The notes below the pieces were generated by a model. It was not told where the DNA came from and searched no databases. It worked only from the letters and a program-made list of their open reading frames with translations. The translations under genes and the position numbers were made by a program. A DNA stretch of 64,000 bases from NCBI GenBank assembly GCA_905215645.1, contig CAJMQS010000002.1:65186-129185 (forward strand), read 5' to 3'. This stretch comes from an uncultured bacterium. GTDB taxonomy: Bacteria > Bacillota > Negativicutes > Acidaminococcales > Acidaminococcaceae. Positions 7,043 through 31,886 of this stretch are shown piece by piece (the stretch's first letter is position 1; each line of letters begins with the position of its first letter).

Positions 7043-7483
7043 CTACTCCCCCACCGGATAAGGCGGCACCTTACCCACCAGAGACGCGGTCTTCAGCCGC
7101 GCTTCCGCCCTGCGCAGGATTTTTTCAGTATGTTCCACGTCCGTCAGGGCATCCGGATGCTCCAGTCTGGCCAATGCTTCCTGCCGGATCTGCTGGTATT
7201 TGGCCACATCGATGTTCTCTGCTTTCTGGGCCCTGGGTGTCAGGATGACCACCTGGTTGTCCTTGACCTCCGCAAATCCCCCTTCTACGTAGACCAGGAT
7301 CACCTGATTGTCCTTATCCTGCAGCTTCAGGGTCCCTTCCCCCAGCACAGCGATCATCGGGCTGTGGTTGGCTAAGATCCCAACGCCCCCATTTACTGTA
7401 TTCAACAAGACATAGGAAATATCCTCCCTCTTGACCAAAAGTTTTTCAGGTGTGAGGACTTCCAATTTCATTAATCTGGCCAT
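7043..7483 (-). CDS. atpC: F-type ATP synthase subunit epsilon
   Basis: MARLMKLEVLTPEK... typical epsilon N-terminus. Operon position. Confidence 0.9.
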   Translation of the reverse strand: MARLMKLEVLTPEKLLVKREDISYVLLNTVNGGVGILANHSPMIAVLGEGTLKLQDKDNQVILVYVEGGFAEVKDNQVVILTPRAQKAENIDVAKYQQIRQEALARLEHPDALTDVEHTEKILRRAEARLKTASLVGKVPPYPVGE

Positions 7484-7484
7484 A

Positions 7485-9883
<2,399 letters not shown>

Positions 9884-9899
9884 CCAGGATCACCTGCCC

Positions 9900-11756
9900 T
9901 TACATGCCGCCTGCAGTGCCAGGCGCAAACATCTTCCCGAAATCATCCAGGGCCTCATCCAGTTCCTCTTTCAGGTCATCAGTCAGTTTCTGTTCTTTTT
10001 CCAGCCGAGTCAGGATGATGGAACAGTGGTTGTTCAGATACCCCAGCATTTCATGCTCATATCGGGTCACGTCTTCCACTGGGATTTCATCCAGGAACCC
10101 ATTGTTCACGGCATAAAGGGAAACCACTTCCTGGGCCATGGAAAGAGGCTGGTACTGCCCCTGTTTCAGCATTTCTGTCACCCGGGCCCCAAGGTCCAGC
10201 TGGGCCTTGGTCTCCCGGTCCAGATCCGAACCGAACTGGGCAAAAGCAGCCAGTTCCCGGTATTGGGCCAGGGACAGACGCAGGGTGCCAGCCACCGTCT
10301 TCATGGCCTTGGTCTGGGCCGCGCCCCCTACCCGGGATACGGAGAGCCCGGAGTTCAGGGCCGGACGGATACCGGAGTTGAACAGGTCGGTTTCCAGATA
10401 GATCTGGCCATCGGTGATGGAAATCACGTTGGTAGGGATGTAGCCGCTCACATCCCCGGCCTGGGTCTCGATGATGGGCAGGGCTGTCATGGAACCGCCG
10501 CCATGGCGTTCGTTCCGGCGGCAGGCTCGCTCCAGCAGACGGGAATGGAGATAGAATACGTCCCCGGGATAAGCTTCCCGTCCAGGGGGACGGCGGAGCA
10601 GCAGACTCATGGCACGATAGGCCACCGCATGCTTGCTCAAGTCATCATAGACAATCAGCACATCTTTGCCCTGATCCATGAAATATTCCCCCACCGCAGC
10701 CCCGGCATAAGGAGCCAGGTACTGCATGGGAGCCGTATCAGCAGCCGTCGCCGCCACGATCATGGTATAGGCGCTGGCGCCGTATTGTTCAAAAGTATGA
10801 TACAGCCGGGCCACGGAAGAAGCCTTCTGTCCGATGGCCACATAGATGCAGATTACATCCTTGCCCTTCTGGTTCAGGATGGTATCGACGGCAATGGCGG
10901 TTTTCCCAGTCCCCCGGTCCCCGATGATCAGTTCCCGCTGGCCACGGCCGATGGGCACCAGGGCATCTACAGCCTTGAGCCCGGTCTGGAGAGGGACATC
11001 TACCGGCTGGCGGGCGGCAATCCCCGGAGCCTGGTGTTCGATGGGGTACTTGACCTGGGTCTTAATGGCCCCTTTGCCGTCCAGGGGCAGTCCCAGCGGG
11101 CTGACGATCCGGCCCAGCATGGCATCTCCCACAGGAATTTCCATGATTTCGCCAGTCCGGCGCACCATGTCGCCTTCCTTGATTTCCGTGGCGCCGCCCA
11201 GCAGCACGATGCCTACTTCATTTTCCCGAAGGTTCTGGACCATGCCATAGACGCCGTCATGGAGAGCCACCAGTTCACCGCTCATGGCGCCGCCCAGGCC
11301 GGAAGCGGTACAGATCCCGTCTCCGACCTTTTCCACCACACCGATTTCTTCCAGGTCCACGTCATTGTGGAAAGACTTGACCCCCTGGGCCAAGGCATCG
11401 GTCATTTTTTCCGTCTGGTCCAGATCCTGGTCACTCAGATGGATGGCCTTCATGATGGCGTCCATCTTCTCCAATTGGCGTTTCATGGTGGCATCAAAAA
11501 TGTGGTCTCCGTACTGGATCAGTACGCCTCCGACCACTTTGGAATCCACCTTTTGTTCCTGCAGTTCCACAGGTTTATGGAATTTCTCTGTCAGCAGTTC
11601 CTGCAGCAGCCCTGCCTCTTCCGTTGTGAGAGGACGGGCCGTGGTGACCGTCACCGGCAGGAGGTCCACCCCTTCAAAAAGGGTCTGGTCCTCCTGGGTC
11701 AGGGTCAGGCGATCCAGGATCTGTTTCCACAGAGCTTCCTTGCTTTTGCTGTTCAT
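9900..11756 (-). CDS. atpA: F-type ATP synthase alpha subunit, with the delta (OSCP) C-terminal domain fused in frame at its N-terminus
   Basis: 618-aa continuous ORF. Residues ~30-105 match the delta C-terminal domain (VTVTTARPL...[25 protein letters not shown]). The remainder is a complete alpha (P-loop GDRGTGKT). No stop codon lies between them. Confidence 0.8.
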
Positions 11757-11795
11757 GGGTTGTTTCTGCCTCCACAGTTCCTTTCCAGGGACTTC

Positions 11796-12293
11796 TCATT
11801 TTTTCTGTTCGGCCAGGGTTTCATCCGTGATCTTGGCGACCAGTTTCTGGTCTTCCGCCGAATCCAGCTTTTCCTGCAGCACCCGGCCGGCAATTTCCGT
11901 ACTCAGGGCAATGATCTGTTCCCGAACATCCAGCAGGGCTTTTTTCTTTTCCAGCTCCACCGTCTGCCGCCCGGAAGCCAGCAGTTCTTCCCTTTCCTTC
12001 TGGGCGTTGGCCAGGGCTTCATCATGGAGTTCCTGGGCCATGGCATTGGCTTTGGAAATAATGTCGTTGGCTTCCTTTTTGGCATTCTTCAGCTGGGTGA
12101 CATATTCCGCCTTCAGTGCCTCCGCTTCCTTCCTGGCATGGTCCGCCTGGTCCATATCCTTGACGATTTTCGTCCGGCGGTCGTCCATAGCCTTCAGGAG
12201 CGGCTTATAGGCGAATTTGGCCAGCACCCAGAGCAAGATGATGAAATTCACCACCTGCGCAATCAGTGTATAGTTGATACTTACCATTCCCAA
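11796..12293 (-). CDS. atpF: F-type ATP synthase subunit b
   Basis: 165 aa, N-terminal TM helix then long charged helix. Operon position. Confidence 0.85.
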   Translation of the reverse strand: MGMVSINYTLIAQVVNFIILLWVLAKFAYKPLLKAMDDRRTKIVKDMDQADHARKEAEALKAEYVTQLKNAKKEANDIISKANAMAQELHDEALANAQKEREELLASGRQTVELEKKKALLDVREQIIALSTEIAGRVLQEKLDSAEDQKLVAKITDETLAEQKK

Positions 12294-12329
12294 CCACTTC
12301 CTTTCTCCCCAAGTTTCCTCCCCAATCTC

Positions 12330-12587
12330 TTATTTCACAAAGGGATTGGCAAATACCAGTACGATGGCGATGACGGAAGCGATGATGGGGATGGATTCGA
12401 CCAGGCCGATACCGATCAGCATATTGACCTGGAAGCTGCCGGCCTGCTCCGGCTGCCGGGCCATGCATTCCAGAGCCTTGGAAGCCACGGCGGAGTCCCC
12501 TTTGGTAGCTGCCAGAGAAGCACCTACGCCAATTAAAGCGGCTCCCAGAATGGAAGCGACGATGATCAGGGTATTGTTGTCTATCAT
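12330..12587 (-). CDS. atpE: F-type ATP synthase subunit c
   Basis: 85-aa two-helix proteolipid with conserved carboxylate (LVESIPII). Confidence 0.9.
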   Translation of the reverse strand: MIDNNTLIIVASILGAALIGVGASLAATKGDSAVASKALECMARQPEQAGSFQVNMLIGIGLVESIPIIASVIAIVLVFANPFVK

Positions 12588-12615
12588 TTTTTACATCCTT
12601 TCTTTTTCCAGACTT

Positions 12616-13323
12616 TTACTTATTGGAATGGACTTGCTTGAAAATCGGGGCCAGGGCAATCACGGTCAGCATGGTAAAGATGAAAGCCTGGAGAAAACCT
12701 ATGATCAGGCTGAAGCCGATCCACAGGTTGGGCACCACCCAGGGTACCAGCATATACAGCACGGCCAGCAGGATTTCCCCTGCCAGGATGTTCCCGAACA
12801 GACGCAGGGCCATGGTCAGCGGTTTGGCCAGCTCTTCGATGATGTTCAGGGGGAGCATCAGCGCAAAGGGGGAGACCAAATGCTTGAAATATTTGGGTCC
12901 CTGCTGGATCACTCCGATGATGTAGGTGGCGATGGCCACAGTGATGGAAAGGCCCAGAGCCACGTTGATGTCGTTGGTGGGAGAAGAAAGATGCACACCC
13001 ACAGAGGGCATCAGCCCCAGTTCATTCCCTACAAAGATATAAAGGAACAGGGTAAGGATAAAGGGGGTGGCCACCCGCCGTCCTTCCACACCAAGGTTGG
13101 CATCCATCAGTTTTTCCAGCCACTCGATGATCATTTCCATCAGATTCTGGATTCCATAGGGAATCTCCTGTACCCGCCGGGTGGCGGCAAAGACCAGTGC
13201 TGCCACGATCAGCATGGTAAGCCAGGACATATAGATTGTCTGCATATTCAGGCTGATCCCCGGCAGGACTTCTGTAGTCCCATAATGGATGACTTCCGAA
13301 CTTGCAGCTTCTGCAATTCCCAT
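12616..13323 (-). CDS. atpB: F-type ATP synthase subunit a
   Basis: Conserved Arg motif (LRLFGNILAGE). Start trimmed to MGIAEAA after AAAGGAAGTG RBS. Confidence 0.85.
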   Translation of the reverse strand: MGIAEAASSEVIHYGTTEVLPGISLNMQTIYMSWLTMLIVAALVFAATRRVQEIPYGIQNLMEMIIEWLEKLMDANLGVEGRRVATPFILTLFLYIFVGNELGLMPSVGVHLSSPTNDINVALGLSITVAIATYIIGVIQQGPKYFKHLVSPFALMLPLNIIEELAKPLTMALRLFGNILAGEILLAVLYMLVPWVVPNLWIGFSLIIGFLQAFIFTMLTVIALAPIFKQVHSNK

Positions 13324-13377
13324 ATTCTTATCACTTCCTTTACAAAGATTCTGCTTTTTATCGGAAACTCTGAACAT

Positions 13378-13794
13378 TCAGGATTTCCGGCATCCAAGAC
13401 GGCAGTATGCCATCTGGATGATCAAGCCCACATTCAGGACCAGGAAACCGGCCAGGACCAGCACCGGCTGCCACCGGTTCCGCAAAGCCAGGACCGTCCA
13501 GCACAAGAGGAAGGCGATGCGGGTAAACATGGTCCGGTGCATGGCAAGAGCCGCTTTGTCCGGTTCCTTCCGCATGCCCCGGTGGATCCCCCACAGGACT
13601 TGGAAGGTATCGGACAGCCCGGCAGCCGCTCCCAGGACTGTTCCCCTGCCATCCCCGCCCAAGATCAGGACCAGGATCAGGAAACAGCCAGCCAGCACCG
13701 CCTGTTTCCAAAAGAGCTTCCGGAGCTGTCCCCCCAGGATCTGGAGGAGATTCCCCTCCTGAGGCGTCCCCGGGCCATTTTTCCAGGGATCCAT
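13378..13794 (-). CDS. atpI: ATP synthase protein I (AtpI/AtpZ-like)
   Basis: Small hydrophobic protein at the head of the atp operon. Confidence 0.6.
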   Translation of the reverse strand: MDPWKNGPGTPQEGNLLQILGGQLRKLFWKQAVLAGCFLILVLILGGDGRGTVLGAAAGLSDTFQVLWGIHRGMRKEPDKAALAMHRTMFTRIAFLLCWTVLALRNRWQPVLVLAGFLVLNVGLIIQMAYCRLGCRKS

Positions 13795-13800
13795 CGACGG

Positions 13801-14967
13801 CTACTTGTTCTGCCCCCCATGGAATTCCGGCATCAGTTCTACAGGATACCCATGGGTATGGAGCAGATAGGTGACGATCCGTTTGGCAGCCTGTCCGTCC
13901 CCATAGGGATTGACGGCTTCCGCCATGGACCGATAGTATTTTTCATCGTTCAGGAGACGGCAAGTGGCAGCATACACATCTTCCTTCCCGGTGCCAATCA
14001 GCTTCACCGTACCGGCAGTGACGGCTTCCGGCCGTTCCGTGGTGCTGCGCAGCACCAGGACCGGTTTGCCCAGGGCAGGTGCCTCTTCCTGGATACCGCC
14101 GGAATCAGTCAGGACAATGTCCACCCGAGCCATCAAGTTGGCAAAAGGTTCATACTCCATGGGTTCCAGCAGATGGACCCGTTCCATCTTGCCCAGGACC
14201 GCTTCGGCCACTTCCCGCACTTTGGGATTCTTGTGCATGGGGAAAATGGCTTCCGCCTGGGGATTGTCCTTCAGGACTTCCTTCAGGGCCTGGTATACAT
14301 GGCGCATGGGGACTCCCAGATTTTCTCTCCGGTGAGTGGTCATGAGGATCAGCTTATGGTCGGAACGGATGGCTTCCTCCAGCTTCGGATTGTGAAAGTC
14401 AAAGGAATCCTTCACCGTAGCTTGGAGGGCATCGATCACCGTATTCCCGGTCACATAGATATTGTCCTCCTTGATATTTTCCTTTAGGAGATTGGCCTTG
14501 GCATTGGCCGTGGGTGCAAAATGGAAATCCGTGATGGCTGCCGTCAGTTTCCGGTTCATCTCTTCCGGGAAGGGAGAATACTTGTTCCCGGTACGGAGCC
14601 CCGCTTCCACATGGCCTACAGGGATCTGCTTGTAGAAAGAAGCCAGCGCCCCTACAAAGGTGGTAGTGGTATCCCCATGGACCAGGACCAGATCCGGCTG
14701 TGCCTGTTCCAGGACTTCCTTCAAGCCCATCAGGGCACGGCTGGTCACATCATACAAAGTCTGGCCTGCGGTCATGATGTTCAGATCATAATCCGGTTTG
14801 ATCTGGAACAGATCCAGCACCTGATCCAGCATTTCCCGGTGCTGGGCCGTCACCGCAACGATGGGTTCCAGCATATCCGGATACTTTTTCATTTCCAGCA
14901 CCAGCGGGCACATCTTAATGGCTTCCGGCCGGGTACCGAAAATCGTCATGACTTTCAATTTGTTCAT
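13801..14967 (-). CDS. wecB: UDP-N-acetylglucosamine 2-epimerase (non-hydrolysing)
   Basis: MTIFGTRPEAIKM..., 388-aa epimerase_2 fold throughout. Confidence 0.9.
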   Translation of the reverse strand: MNKLKVMTIFGTRPEAIKMCPLVLEMKKYPDMLEPIVAVTAQHREMLDQVLDLFQIKPDYDLNIMTAGQTLYDVTSRALMGLKEVLEQAQPDLVLVHGDTTTTFVGALASFYKQIPVGHVEAGLRTGNKYSPFPEEMNRKLTAAITDFHFAPTANAKANLLKENIKEDNIYVTGNTVIDALQATVKDSFDFHNPKLEEAIRSDHKLILMTTHRRENLGVPMRHVYQALKEVLKDNPQAEAIFPMHKNPKVREVAEAVLGKMERVHLLEPMEYEPFANLMARVDIVLTDSGGIQEEAPALGKPVLVLRSTTERPEAVTAGTVKLIGTGKEDVYAATCRLLNDEKYYRSMAEAVNPYGDGQAAKRIVTYLLHTHGYPVELMPEFHGGQNK

Positions 14968-27604: not shown

Positions 27605-27695
27605 GGAGAGTTGTCCGAGTGGTTGAAGGAGCACGCCTGGAAAGCGTGTATACGGGATAACCGTATCGAGGGTTCGAATCCCTCACTCTCCGCCA
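27605..27695 (+). tRNA. tRNA-Ser (anticodon GGA)
   Basis: Cloverleaf with long variable arm, anticodon loop CTGGAAA, T-loop GGTTCGAATCC, 3' CCA encoded. Confidence 0.9.
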
Positions 27696-27733: not shown

Positions 27734-27859
27734 CCGGCGGACTGCAAGAGTGGGTCCTGCGCAATGGAGGCCCGTGAACCTTGTCAGGTCCGGAAGGAAG
27801 CAGCAATAAGCGGATACCCCCATGTGCCGCAGGGGTGCCTGCCCTTGCAGCCCGCCGGG
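27734..27859 (+). ncRNA. ffs: signal recognition particle RNA (small 4.5S-type SRP RNA)
   Basis: Universal domain-IV sequence GTCAGGTCCGGAAGGAAGCAGC. 5' CCGGCGGACTGCAAG pairs with 3' CTTGCAGCCCGCCGG. Terminator hairpin plus T7 follows. Confidence 0.8.
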
Positions 27860-29968: not shown

Positions 29969-30056
29969 TGGCGGATGGGGAGGGATTCGAACCCTCGGTA
30001 CCTTGCGGTACACTTGATTTCGAGTCAAGCACCTTCGACCACTCGGACACCCATCC
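29969..30056 (-). tRNA. tRNA-Ser (anticodon CGA)
   Basis: Reverse complement gives a cloverleaf with long variable arm, anticodon loop CTCGAAA, GGTTCGAATCC T-loop, CCA. Confidence 0.9.
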
Positions 30057-31589: not shown

Positions 31590-31886
31590 TCTCTAACAAA
31601 AAAAGCTCCCGCCCCCTGCAGGGACGAAAGCATCGTGGTACCACCCGGCTTCGCCTGGCGAACCAGGCCTCTCGAGCACGCGAAAATTCGGATGCTCCAG
31701 TGCTGTAACGGGCACTCCCGGATGACCTACTGCTGTTCAATCATCTGCTCCAAGGCCATGTTCCCTTTCTCCGCCGCTCTTCCTTTCACCCCAGTGGAAG
31801 CTCTCTGTGCCGGCCTGCAAAAAGTACTCTTCTTTTCATCGCAGGTATCTCTATCAAATTGCTTTCAATTTAGCACAGAAAATTCC
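31590..31886 (-). ncRNA. T-box riboswitch leader (probably Met-specific) with promoter and terminator, controlling metA
   Basis: On the minus sense: promoter TTGACG-N17-TAAATT; F-box CCGTTA (plus 31705-31712); T-box GGGTGGTACCACG (plus 31634-31648); then terminator hairpin and T7 before the metA RBS. Confidence 0.7.

What the first reader, a model, noticed from the sequence alone, without database searches (positions are those of the whole stretch)
9900..11756. ATP synthase delta subunit appears N-terminally truncated and fused in frame to the alpha subunit
The atp operon is otherwise canonical (atpIBEF...AGDC), but there is no separate atpH.

The ORF that begins 40 nt after atpF encodes only the equivalent of the delta/OSCP C-terminal domain ([13 protein letters not shown]...[25 protein letters not shown]). 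It then runs without a stop codon into a complete alpha subunit, 618 aa in total.

The ~100-residue delta N-terminal helical bundle is missing. That domain normally binds the alpha N-terminus. A covalent delta(C-domain)-alpha fusion could make the N-domain dispensable, but it would place a stalk-binding domain on all three alpha copies. This is either an unusual F1 architecture or a sequencing or assembly error that removed the delta N-terminal region and its stop.
Basis: seen in the sequence. Interest (0 to 1): 0.55.

Follow-up and report, generated by a model that had tools for sequence, protein, structure and literature searches.

The report
Natural delta–alpha fused ATP synthase subunit
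This Acidaminococcus gene really does join the stalk-binding half of ATP synthase subunit delta to subunit alpha, a conserved natural design already noted in a 2025 paper, which may let the enzyme carry up to three side stalks and make ATP from a very weak ion gradient.

Summary
On the minus strand, 9900-11756 is one 618-aa ORF. It holds only the C-terminal, b-binding domain of delta/OSCP (residues 33-100), a short linker, and a complete alpha subunit.

It is not a sequencing error:
- The identical protein is indexed in 46 collection blocks of independent assemblies.
- All 10 Acidaminococcus species representatives carry an in-frame ORF of 617-627 aa.
- More divergent Acidaminococcaceae lineages carry the same fusion with near-constant spacing.
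- The delta part is under purifying selection.

It is not new. Ueno et al. (Nat Commun 2025) built this same deltaΔN-alpha fusion in Bacillus PS3 and obtained up to three peripheral stalks and a-subunits, with H+/ATP about 5.8. They also noted that A. fermentans has this fusion naturally. The window protein aligns in one stretch with their engineered chain (PDB 9JC1).

Best reading: each alpha carries its own b2 docking site, so the native enzyme probably has more than one stalk and a high ion/ATP ratio. This has not been tested in the native enzyme.

What I add:
- Genus- and family-wide conservation of the fusion.
- No conserved internal ribosome-binding site.
- Some split alleles.
- Other multi-domain delta variants in unrelated operons.

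The parts
9900..11756 (-). Fused deltaΔN-alpha ORF, 618 aa (about 67 kDa)
   Evidence: The identical protein recurs in many independent assemblies. Orthologous in-frame ORFs of 617-627 aa are in 10 Acidaminococcus species.
11769..11773 (-). Shine-Dalgarno-like GGAGG upstream of the fused ORF's ATG
   Evidence: GGAGG is conserved at the same distance in 10 aligned Acidaminococcus loci.
11661..11756 (-). Residues 1-32: N-terminal helical segment (invariant LWKQI motif in the genus). It probably corresponds to the last helix and hinge of the delta N-domain. Its role is unknown.
   Evidence: NF004401 aligns residues 7-98 to delta positions 87-173. AlphaFold predicts helices 3-14 and 21-26 with pLDDT 68-76. 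Median dN/dS is 0.21. The segment is present in all fused lineages and absent from the engineered construct.
11457..11660 (-). Residues 33-100: delta/OSCP C-terminal domain, which binds the b2 stalk
   Evidence: Pfam OSCP positions 103-170 of 172. The sequence aligns to Bacillus PS3 delta residues 110-172 and to the engineered chain 9jc1_I. The predicted fold is beta-alpha-beta-beta-beta-alpha. Median dN/dS is 0.16.
11415..11456 (-). Residues 101-114: natural linker between the delta C-terminus and the alpha N-terminus
   Evidence: There are no indels among 11 Acidaminococcus sequences. The spacer from the QLEK motif to the DLEE motif is 36 residues in the window (counted from the sequence; script 65 stopped before printing this value). 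It is 36 residues in 8 other lineages and 35 in one. The natural linker is 3 residues longer than the engineered GGSGGS linker.
11352..11414 (-). Residues 115-135: alpha N-terminal helix, retained
   Evidence: TIGR00962 matches from its position 4 at residue 115. Median dN/dS is 0.30.
9900..11351 (-). Residues 136-618: alpha crown barrel, nucleotide-binding domain and C-terminal domain
   Evidence: Median dN/dS is 0.08.
11796..12293 (-). atpF (b subunit, 165 aa), the expected partner of the delta C-domain
   Evidence: PF00430 and TIGR01144.
12330..12587 (-). atpE (c subunit, 85 aa)
   Evidence: PF00137. Alignments to solved c-rings.
12616..13377 (-). atpB (a subunit)
   Evidence: PF00119.
13378..13794 (-). 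atpI-like ORF (138 aa)
   Evidence: Assigned by position in the operon. There is no Pfam hit here. The homologue in L020 has a weak ATP-synt_I hit.
8975..9883 (-). atpG (gamma)
   Evidence: PF00231.
7485..8960 (-). atpD (beta, 491 aa, with a genus-specific N-terminal extension of about 21 residues)
7043..7483 (-). atpC (epsilon)
   Evidence: PF02823 and PF00401.

Best explanation
Shown: this is a real, conserved gene of Acidaminococcus, and more widely of Acidaminococcaceae. The delta subunit has lost its N-terminal helical bundle. Its C-terminal b-binding domain is translated as the N-terminal extension of alpha.

Shown by a published analogue: in an ordinary F-ATP synthase, one delta N-domain sits on the three-fold axis of the alpha3beta3 crown and limits the enzyme to one stalk. 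Removing it and tethering a delta C-domain to every alpha gives three equivalent docking sites for b2 dimers. Each b2 dimer brings its own a-subunit. In the engineered Bacillus PS3 enzyme, each c-subunit then exchanges an ion at every a-subunit it passes. The ion/ATP ratio is multiplied, and ATP can be made at about half the usual ion-motive force.

Inferred: the native enzyme here also carries more than one stalk and more than one a-subunit, up to alpha*3 beta3 gamma epsilon a3 b6 c_n. It therefore works as a high-ratio, low-threshold ATP synthase.

From established knowledge of the family's physiology (not tested here): this suits bacteria that live on small ion gradients made by decarboxylases. 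Acidaminococcus uses glutaconyl-CoA decarboxylase. Phascolarctobacterium and Succiniclasticum use methylmalonyl-CoA decarboxylase.
For: The fusion is real and selected:
- The identical 618-aa protein is indexed in 46 collection blocks and seen on 159 contigs.
- In-frame ORFs of 617-627 aa are in all 10 Acidaminococcus species representatives, at 55-99% identity over the first 153 residues.
- There are no indels in the first 165 alignment columns. Median dN/dS is 0.16 for the delta C-domain and 0.27 for the linker.
- The same architecture occurs in at least 8 more divergent lineages, one of them named 'Acidaminococcaceae bacterium'. The spacer is 35-36 residues in the nine lineages that were measured.

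It matches the engineered multi-stalk enzyme:
- Residues 37-611 align in a single stretch to PDB 9jc1 chain I, residues 8-577. That chain is the engineered deltaΔN-alpha fusion.
- 9jc1 is also the best hit for the N-terminal 136 residues by sequence and for the predicted structure.

Published function of the analogue (Nat Commun 2025;16:5410, PMC12229609):
- It has up to three stalks and three a-subunits by cryo-EM, and about 2 on average.
- Its H+/ATP ratio is 5.8 against 3.0 for wild type.
- The authors state that A. fermentans (UniProt D2RLW6) has the same fusion with the delta N-domain missing, and is 'highly likely' multi-stalk.

Natural precedent: the Chloroflexus aurantiacus F1Fo has two stalks and two a-subunits, linked to a shortened delta N-domain (PMC12002316).

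No conserved Shine-Dalgarno sequence precedes the internal Met98 or Met102. The canonical alpha start position is not a conserved start codon.
Against: - No native Acidaminococcus enzyme has been purified or imaged. I found no such paper in the held library.
- Stalk number in vivo depends on the supply of a and b, on c-ring size and on assembly. None of these can be read from the sequence.
- The natural protein has an extra conserved 32-residue N-terminal segment that the engineered construct lacks. This segment could cap the crown asymmetrically and limit the number of stalks.
- Two split alleles exist in relatives: an 11-nt deletion in L005 and an A6-to-A5 frameshift on 18 contigs. If real, the covalent link may not be indispensable.
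- I could not search a complete genome for a second, canonical atpH.
Confidence: 0.55

Rival explanations
1. The fusion is real but the enzyme keeps one stalk. All three alphas carry a delta C-domain, yet only one is occupied by b2 and a. The limit could be the supply of a and b, c-ring geometry, or the conserved N-terminal 32-residue segment. On this reading the fusion only replaces the lost delta N-domain as the anchor.
For: Single-stalk particles were also seen for the engineered enzyme, whose average was about 2 stalks rather than 3. The operon has single copies of atpB and atpF. An extra conserved N-terminal segment is present in the natural protein and absent from the engineered one.
Against: In the engineered enzyme, extra sites were filled from an unmodified operon without raising a or b expression. 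A long-conserved design that leaves two of three docking domains empty has no evident advantage over the canonical delta.
Confidence: 0.3
2. Mixed products. Internal translation initiation near Met98 or Met102, or proteolysis in the linker, yields free alpha as well as the fusion (or a free short delta). The complex then contains one delta C-domain and one stalk.
For: Met98 and Met102 are invariant in the genus. In the window itself a GGAG lies 3 nt before the Met98 codon. A split arrangement occurs in L005, with a short delta and an alpha that has an overlapping GTG start.
Against: The GGAG is not conserved: most species have GGAA, with free synonymous variation. Its spacing is too short for Met98 and too long for Met102. 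The invariant methionines lie within the predicted C-terminal helix of the delta domain. Linker length is strictly conserved, which is not expected for a segment that is merely cut. The engineered uncleaved fusion is functional.
Confidence: 0.12
3. Artefact or pseudogene: a sequencing or assembly error removed the delta N-terminus and the stop codon.
For: Frameshifted fragments of this gene are common in error-rich assemblies.
Against: The same in-frame ORF is in isolate genomes and metagenome-assembled genomes (MAGs) of 10 species and in dozens of independent assemblies. It is under purifying selection. The same fusion in A. fermentans is noted in the literature.
Confidence: 0.01

Closest known systems
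Natural deltaΔN-alpha fusion of Acidaminococcus fermentans (UniProt D2RLW6; also G4Q3K6 and A0A1I2C5T3), noted by Ueno et al., Nat Commun 2025;16:5410
   Same: It is the orthologous gene in the same genus, with the same operon order, the same missing delta N-domain and the same in-frame junction. The A. fermentans ORF (L008) is 618 aa and 91% identical overall, and it falls in the same 90% cluster.
   Different: The window comes from another species. It is 94% identical in nucleotides to A. massiliensis Marseille-P2828 and 86% to A. fermentans. The paper reports only the gene fusion and an AlphaFold database model, with no biochemistry on the natural enzyme.
Engineered deltaΔN-alpha fused Bacillus PS3 FoF1 (PDB 9JC1)
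   Same: The domain order is the same: delta C-domain, short linker, then full alpha including its N-terminal helix. The two align in one stretch, residues 37-611 against 8-577. In the engineered enzyme, every alpha carries a b2 docking site.
   Different: The natural protein has an extra conserved 32-36 residues at the N-terminus and a natural linker 3 residues longer than GGSGGS. Epsilon is intact here (146 aa) but truncated in the construct. Stalk number and ion/ATP ratio were measured only for the engineered enzyme.
Chloroflexus aurantiacus two-stalk F1Fo (alpha3 beta3 gamma epsilon delta2 a2 b4 c10; PNAS 2025, PMC12002316)
   Same: It is a natural F-type enzyme in which a reduced delta N-domain goes with more than one stalk and more than one a-subunit.
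   Different: Delta is a separate protein there. It keeps a four-helix N-domain that dimerises on top of F1, which gives two stalks. There is no fusion to alpha.
Mycobacterial b-delta fusion (NCBIfam NF009961, 'F0F1 ATP synthase subunit B/delta')
   Same: It is another gene fusion that involves delta within the peripheral stalk. The delta part here gives a weak match to the C-terminal end of that model.
   Different: The fusion partner is b, not alpha. The delta N-domain is retained and the enzyme has one stalk (established knowledge).
A/V-type rotary ATPases with two or three EG peripheral stalks
   Same: They have several stalks attached around a three-fold head.
   Different: The stalk proteins are unrelated. 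Thermus V/A-ATPase has two stalks but only one a-subunit (stated in PMC12002316). Extra stalks there do not multiply the ion paths.

Membership tests
F-type ATP synthase alpha subunit (TIGR00962 atpA equivalog) | Full-length match above the curated cutoff, with crown barrel, nucleotide-binding domain and C-terminal domain | tested here: met
   The score is 779.7 bits against a cutoff of 484.45, with residues 115-611 matching model positions 4-502. PF02874, PF00006 and PF00306 are all present.
F-type ATP synthase delta/OSCP (TIGR01145 / PF00213), full-length | N-terminal helical bundle (about 100 residues) that binds the alpha N-termini, plus the C-terminal b-binding domain | tested here: not met
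   Only profile positions 103-170 of 172 are matched. TIGR01145 scores 41.8 against a cutoff of 57.5. A profile of full-length deltas matches only its positions 102-176 and nothing else in the window.
delta/OSCP C-terminal domain | Sequence match and a fold of a four-stranded sheet with two helices | tested here: met
   PF00213 scores 50 bits against a cutoff of 22.3. The sequence aligns to solved delta and OSCP C-domains. The predicted secondary structure is beta-alpha-beta-beta-beta-alpha with pLDDT 73-85.
Natural deltaΔN-alpha fusion (Acidaminococcus type, Ueno et al. 2025) | Delta C-domain and alpha in one reading frame, delta N-domain absent, no separate atpH between atpF and atpA | tested here: met
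   The window protein is in the same 90% cluster as the A. fermentans protein.
Natural deltaΔN-alpha fusion (Acidaminococcus type) | No canonical atpH elsewhere in the genome | not testable with these tools
   Only the 64-kb window could be searched, and it has none.
Multi-stalk F-type ATP synthase (engineered PS3 9JC1; C. aurantiacus) | More than one b2 stalk and more than one a-subunit per complex | not testable with these tools
   This needs purification and cryo-EM or subunit quantification of the native enzyme. Only the sequence prerequisite, a docking domain on every alpha, is met.
Multi-stalk F-type ATP synthase | Ion/ATP ratio a multiple of c-ring size divided by 3 | not testable with these tools
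   This was measured only for the engineered enzyme (5.8 against 3.0).

The most novel reading that the evidence does not exclude
The deltaΔN-alpha fusion arose once and is ancestral to Acidaminococcaceae. In vivo it builds a two- or three-stalk F-ATP synthase with two or three a-subunits, possibly Na+-coupled. Its ion/ATP ratio would be two to three times that set by the c-ring. This would be a family-wide adaptation to energy conservation from decarboxylase-generated gradients. The conserved 32-residue N-terminal segment, and in Acidaminococcus the 21-residue extension of beta, would form a new symmetric cap on the crown. Multi-C-domain deltas in unrelated operons would be independent natural routes to the same end.
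Probability: 0.4. Interest if true: 0.8.

Novelty: already known. Interest (0 to 1): 0.45.

Why it matters
The ion/ATP ratio of F-type ATP synthases was long thought to vary only with c-ring size. A natural enzyme that multiplies the ratio by adding stalks and a-subunits would change how we calculate the energy budgets of anaerobes living near the thermodynamic limit. It would also give engineers a natural template for low-threshold ATP synthesis.

The gene fusion in this genus has been pointed out in print. The native enzyme, however, has not been examined in any paper of the held library. The data here add three points: the design is conserved across a whole family, it is under selection, and its linker geometry is fixed. 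That makes Acidaminococcus or Phascolarctobacterium good targets for a direct structural test.

Tried and rejected
- **Sequencing or assembly error:** rejected.
- **Short 'separate delta' proteins as evidence for an unfused state:** the first homology search returned P0004, P0005 and P0006. P0005 comes from an error-rich contig with frameshifts throughout the operon. P0006 is a frameshifted copy of the in-frame L012 type. P0004 (L005) has an 11-nt deletion in a single MAG scaffold and remains unresolved.
- **Internal ribosome-binding site before Met98, Met102 or Met118:** not conserved, and Met118 itself is not conserved.
- **Second delta gene or a stray delta N-domain in the window:** none found.
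- **Exhaustive representative search to count full-length fused proteins:** this failed. Full-length proteins are hidden inside alpha clusters and only fragments surface. The counts of lineages are therefore lower bounds, and most lineages have no taxon name.
- **AlphaFold model of residues 1-260 from a shallow alignment:** only residues 1-95 were usable (mean pLDDT 57). I drew no conclusion about how the domain sits on the crown.
- **Ion specificity from the c subunit:** inconclusive.

Full report
**1. What is in the sequence**

The minus strand of 7043-13794 carries an F-type atp operon. Its order is an atpI-like ORF, atpB, atpE, atpF, a 618-aa ORF (9900-11756), atpG, atpD and atpC.

The 618-aa ORF starts with ATG, 39 nt after the atpF stop. 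A GGAGG lies upstream at 11769-11773.

Its domain matches are as follows:
- Pfam places only the last 68 positions of the 172-position OSCP model on residues 33-100.
- The three alpha domains fall on residues 136-606.
- The NCBIfam atpA equivalog matches residues 115-611 from its position 4, far above its cutoff.
- The full-length delta equivalog stays below its cutoff and matches only with its C-terminal third.

A profile built from twelve full-length deltas, run against all six frames of the window, hits only this ORF and only with profile positions 102-176.

**2. It is not an error**

- The identical protein is indexed in 46 blocks of the assembly collection. Four places were shown, from ENA and Logan assemblies, with the same flanking genes.
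- NCBI lists the protein as 'MULTISPECIES: F0F1 ATP synthase subunit alpha [Acidaminococcus]', seen on 159 contigs.
- A scan of one genome per species found 10 Acidaminococcus species. They include isolates of A. fermentans, A. massiliensis and A. hominis. In each, the match covers query residues 1-153 in one ungapped segment.
- Translated onward, every one of these is an uninterrupted ORF of 617-627 aa starting at a homologous ATG.
- The window is 94% identical in DNA to A. massiliensis. It is 100% identical to two of the gut metagenome contigs found.

**3. It is under selection, and the geometry is fixed**

Across the 11 sequences the first 165 alignment columns contain no gap. Median pairwise dN/dS values:

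| Region | Residues | Median dN/dS |
|---|---|---|
| N-terminal segment | 1-32 | 0.21 |
| Delta C-domain | 33-100 | 0.16 |
| Linker | 101-114 | 0.27 |
| Alpha N-terminal helix | 115-135 | 0.30 |
| Alpha core | 136-611 | 0.08 |

**4. It extends beyond the genus**

An exhaustive HMMER search with residues 1-111, followed by a profile search, recovered many fragments. Each reads from a short N-terminal segment through a delta C-domain into the alpha crown barrel. They are 31-47% identical to the first (window) sequence of the query alignment in BLASTP.

- One fragment is annotated 'Acidaminococcaceae bacterium' and lies after atpB-atpE-atpF.
- Another belongs to a low-GC human-gut lineage with the same operon context.
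- The spacer between the delta C-terminal motif (DA[ST]xxRQLEK) and the alpha DLEE(V/I)G motif is 36 residues in the window, counted from the sequence. It is 36 residues in eight further lineages and 35 in one.
- Scores fall abruptly from this group to ordinary 180-aa deltas.

This pattern points to one old fusion event that has been kept since. Full-length members do not surface in these searches because they cluster with ordinary alphas. The breadth I report is therefore a lower bound.

**5. What is known**

A literature search led to Ueno et al., Nat Commun 2025;16:5410. They reasoned that the delta N-domain, sitting on the pseudo-three-fold axis, limits F-ATP synthase to one stalk.

- They deleted delta residues 2-104 in Bacillus PS3 and fused residues 105-178 to the N-terminus of alpha.
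- The enzyme then carried about twice as much a and b. Cryo-EM showed one, two or three stalks, each with its own a-subunit.
- The H+/ATP ratio was 5.8 against 3.0, and ATP was made at about half the usual proton-motive force.
- In the Discussion and Supplementary Fig. 9 they state that the A. fermentans operon has this same fusion with the delta N-domain missing (UniProt D2RLW6; also G4Q3K6 and A0A1I2C5T3). They call a multi-stalk native enzyme 'highly likely' and say the natural diversity 'awaits further experimental verification'.

I found no later paper on the native enzyme in the held library. A natural two-stalk, two-a-subunit F1Fo is known from Chloroflexus aurantiacus, where a shortened delta N-domain dimerises.

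**6. Direct comparison with the engineered chain**

- Against all PDB sequences, the best hit of the N-terminal 136 residues is 9jc1 chain I, 'ATP synthase delta subunit, ATP synthase subunit alpha'.
- The whole protein aligns to that chain in one stretch, residues 37-611 against 8-577. The natural linker is three residues longer than the artificial GGSGGS.
- An AlphaFold model of residues 1-260 is reliable only for residues 1-95. There it shows two short helices followed by the beta-alpha-beta-beta-beta-alpha delta C-domain.
- The three 9jc1 fused chains are the top structural hits for that model.

**7. Mechanism and rivals**

*Shown:* every alpha made from this gene carries a b2-binding domain, and no delta N-domain is encoded nearby.

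*Shown in the analogue:* such an enzyme binds up to three stalks and a-subunits, and this multiplies the ion/ATP ratio.

*Inferred:* the native enzyme does the same.

The main rival is a single-stalk enzyme in which two docking domains stay empty. The natural protein does have a conserved 32-residue N-terminal segment that the engineered one lacks, and this might restrict occupancy.

A second rival is internal initiation or cleavage. The GGAG before Met98 in the window is not conserved, since most species have GGAA. The canonical alpha start position is not a start codon in most species, and Met118 is not conserved. I cannot exclude proteolysis.

From established physiology, not tested here: Acidaminococcus conserves energy with the Na+-pumping glutaconyl-CoA decarboxylase. 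Phascolarctobacterium and Succiniclasticum live on succinate decarboxylation. A low-threshold, high-ratio synthase would fit such organisms.

**8. Verdict**

The case is already published for this genus, so it is not novel. It remains biologically interesting because the native enzyme is untested.

- conservation across the genus and the family;
- invariant spacing between the delta and alpha parts;
- purifying selection on the delta part and the linker;
- no conserved internal ribosome-binding site;
- split alleles in two lineages;
- a genus-specific extension of beta;
- delta variants with several C-domains in unrelated operons.

Noticed in passing
L023:2271-3509; L024:1871-2311; L026:514-1056 (proteins P0011, P0013, P0017, P0020; P0014, P0015, P0018; P0039, P0048): Other delta variants sit at the atpH position of atp operons. 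Some are full-length deltas followed by one or two extra tandem C-terminal domains (262-412 aa). Others are proteins of 146-180 aa made of two C-terminal domains with no N-domain. These could be independent natural ways to offer more than one b2 docking site. I did not find them in the literature I searched.
   Followed up: partly
L019:8001-9832, L020:4352-6183, L021, L022, compared with L018:403-1050: In the low-GC gut lineage, an A6 run in GTTGAAAAAATCGG is A5 on 18 contigs from several samples. This splits the fusion into a 147-aa piece (delta C-domain, alpha N-helix and first strand) and a 463-aa alpha whose ATG overlaps the stop (ATGA). Other contigs have the in-frame A6. It could be a real allele, a phase-variable tract or a recurrent homopolymer error.
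   Followed up: partly
L005:6001-7855: An A. fermentans-like MAG scaffold (about 86% nucleotide identity to the window by blastn) has an 11-nt deletion in the linker and ATT instead of the ATG start. The result is a 129-aa short delta and a 507-aa alpha with an overlapping GTG start. There is only a single contig, so I cannot tell a real variant from an assembly error.
   Followed up: partly
window 12330-12587 (-), atpE: The c subunit is unusual, and the pattern is conserved across the genus.
- The helix-1 glycine motif GxGxGxG reads S-L-A-A-T-K-G.
- Asp occupies the position of Gln32 in Ilyobacter tartaricus and Glu32 in Fusobacterium nucleatum.
- Glu-Ser of the ion site is kept, but the positions of Thr67 and Tyr70 are both Ile.
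- The low-GC lineage has Asn at position 32.
Ion specificity (Na+ or H+) and ring size cannot be read from this, but both bear on the ion/ATP ratio.
   Followed up: partly
window 8889-8960 (-), start of atpD: Beta has an N-terminal extension of about 21 residues ([26 protein letters not shown] start). It is conserved as protein in the eight other Acidaminococcus loci (nine with the window) where the script found the beta N-terminus. It is absent from Bacillus PS3 beta and from the low-GC fused lineage. It would lie on top of the crown, where the delta N-domain normally sits.
   Followed up: partly
window 11661-11756 (-), residues 1-32 of the fused protein: A conserved N-terminal helical segment (LWKQI invariant in the genus) has no counterpart in the engineered fusion. 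Equivalents exist in every fused lineage. Its function is unknown. One possibility is a cap or a contact between the three copies.
   Followed up: partly
window 13378-13794 (-): The 138-aa ORF at the atpI position has no Pfam match here. The homologue in the low-GC lineage has a weak ATP-synt_I hit.
   Followed up: no
window 9822-12536 (+) and 12274-14487 (+): Very long ORFs (904 and 737 aa) run antisense to the atp genes. They are mechanical products of the composition, and no evidence suggests they are genes.
   Followed up: no
window 31617-31848 (-); 27748-27847 (+); 27605-27692 (+); 29972-30056 (-): Rfam matches at gathering threshold: a T-box leader, the small SRP RNA and two tRNAs.
   Followed up: no
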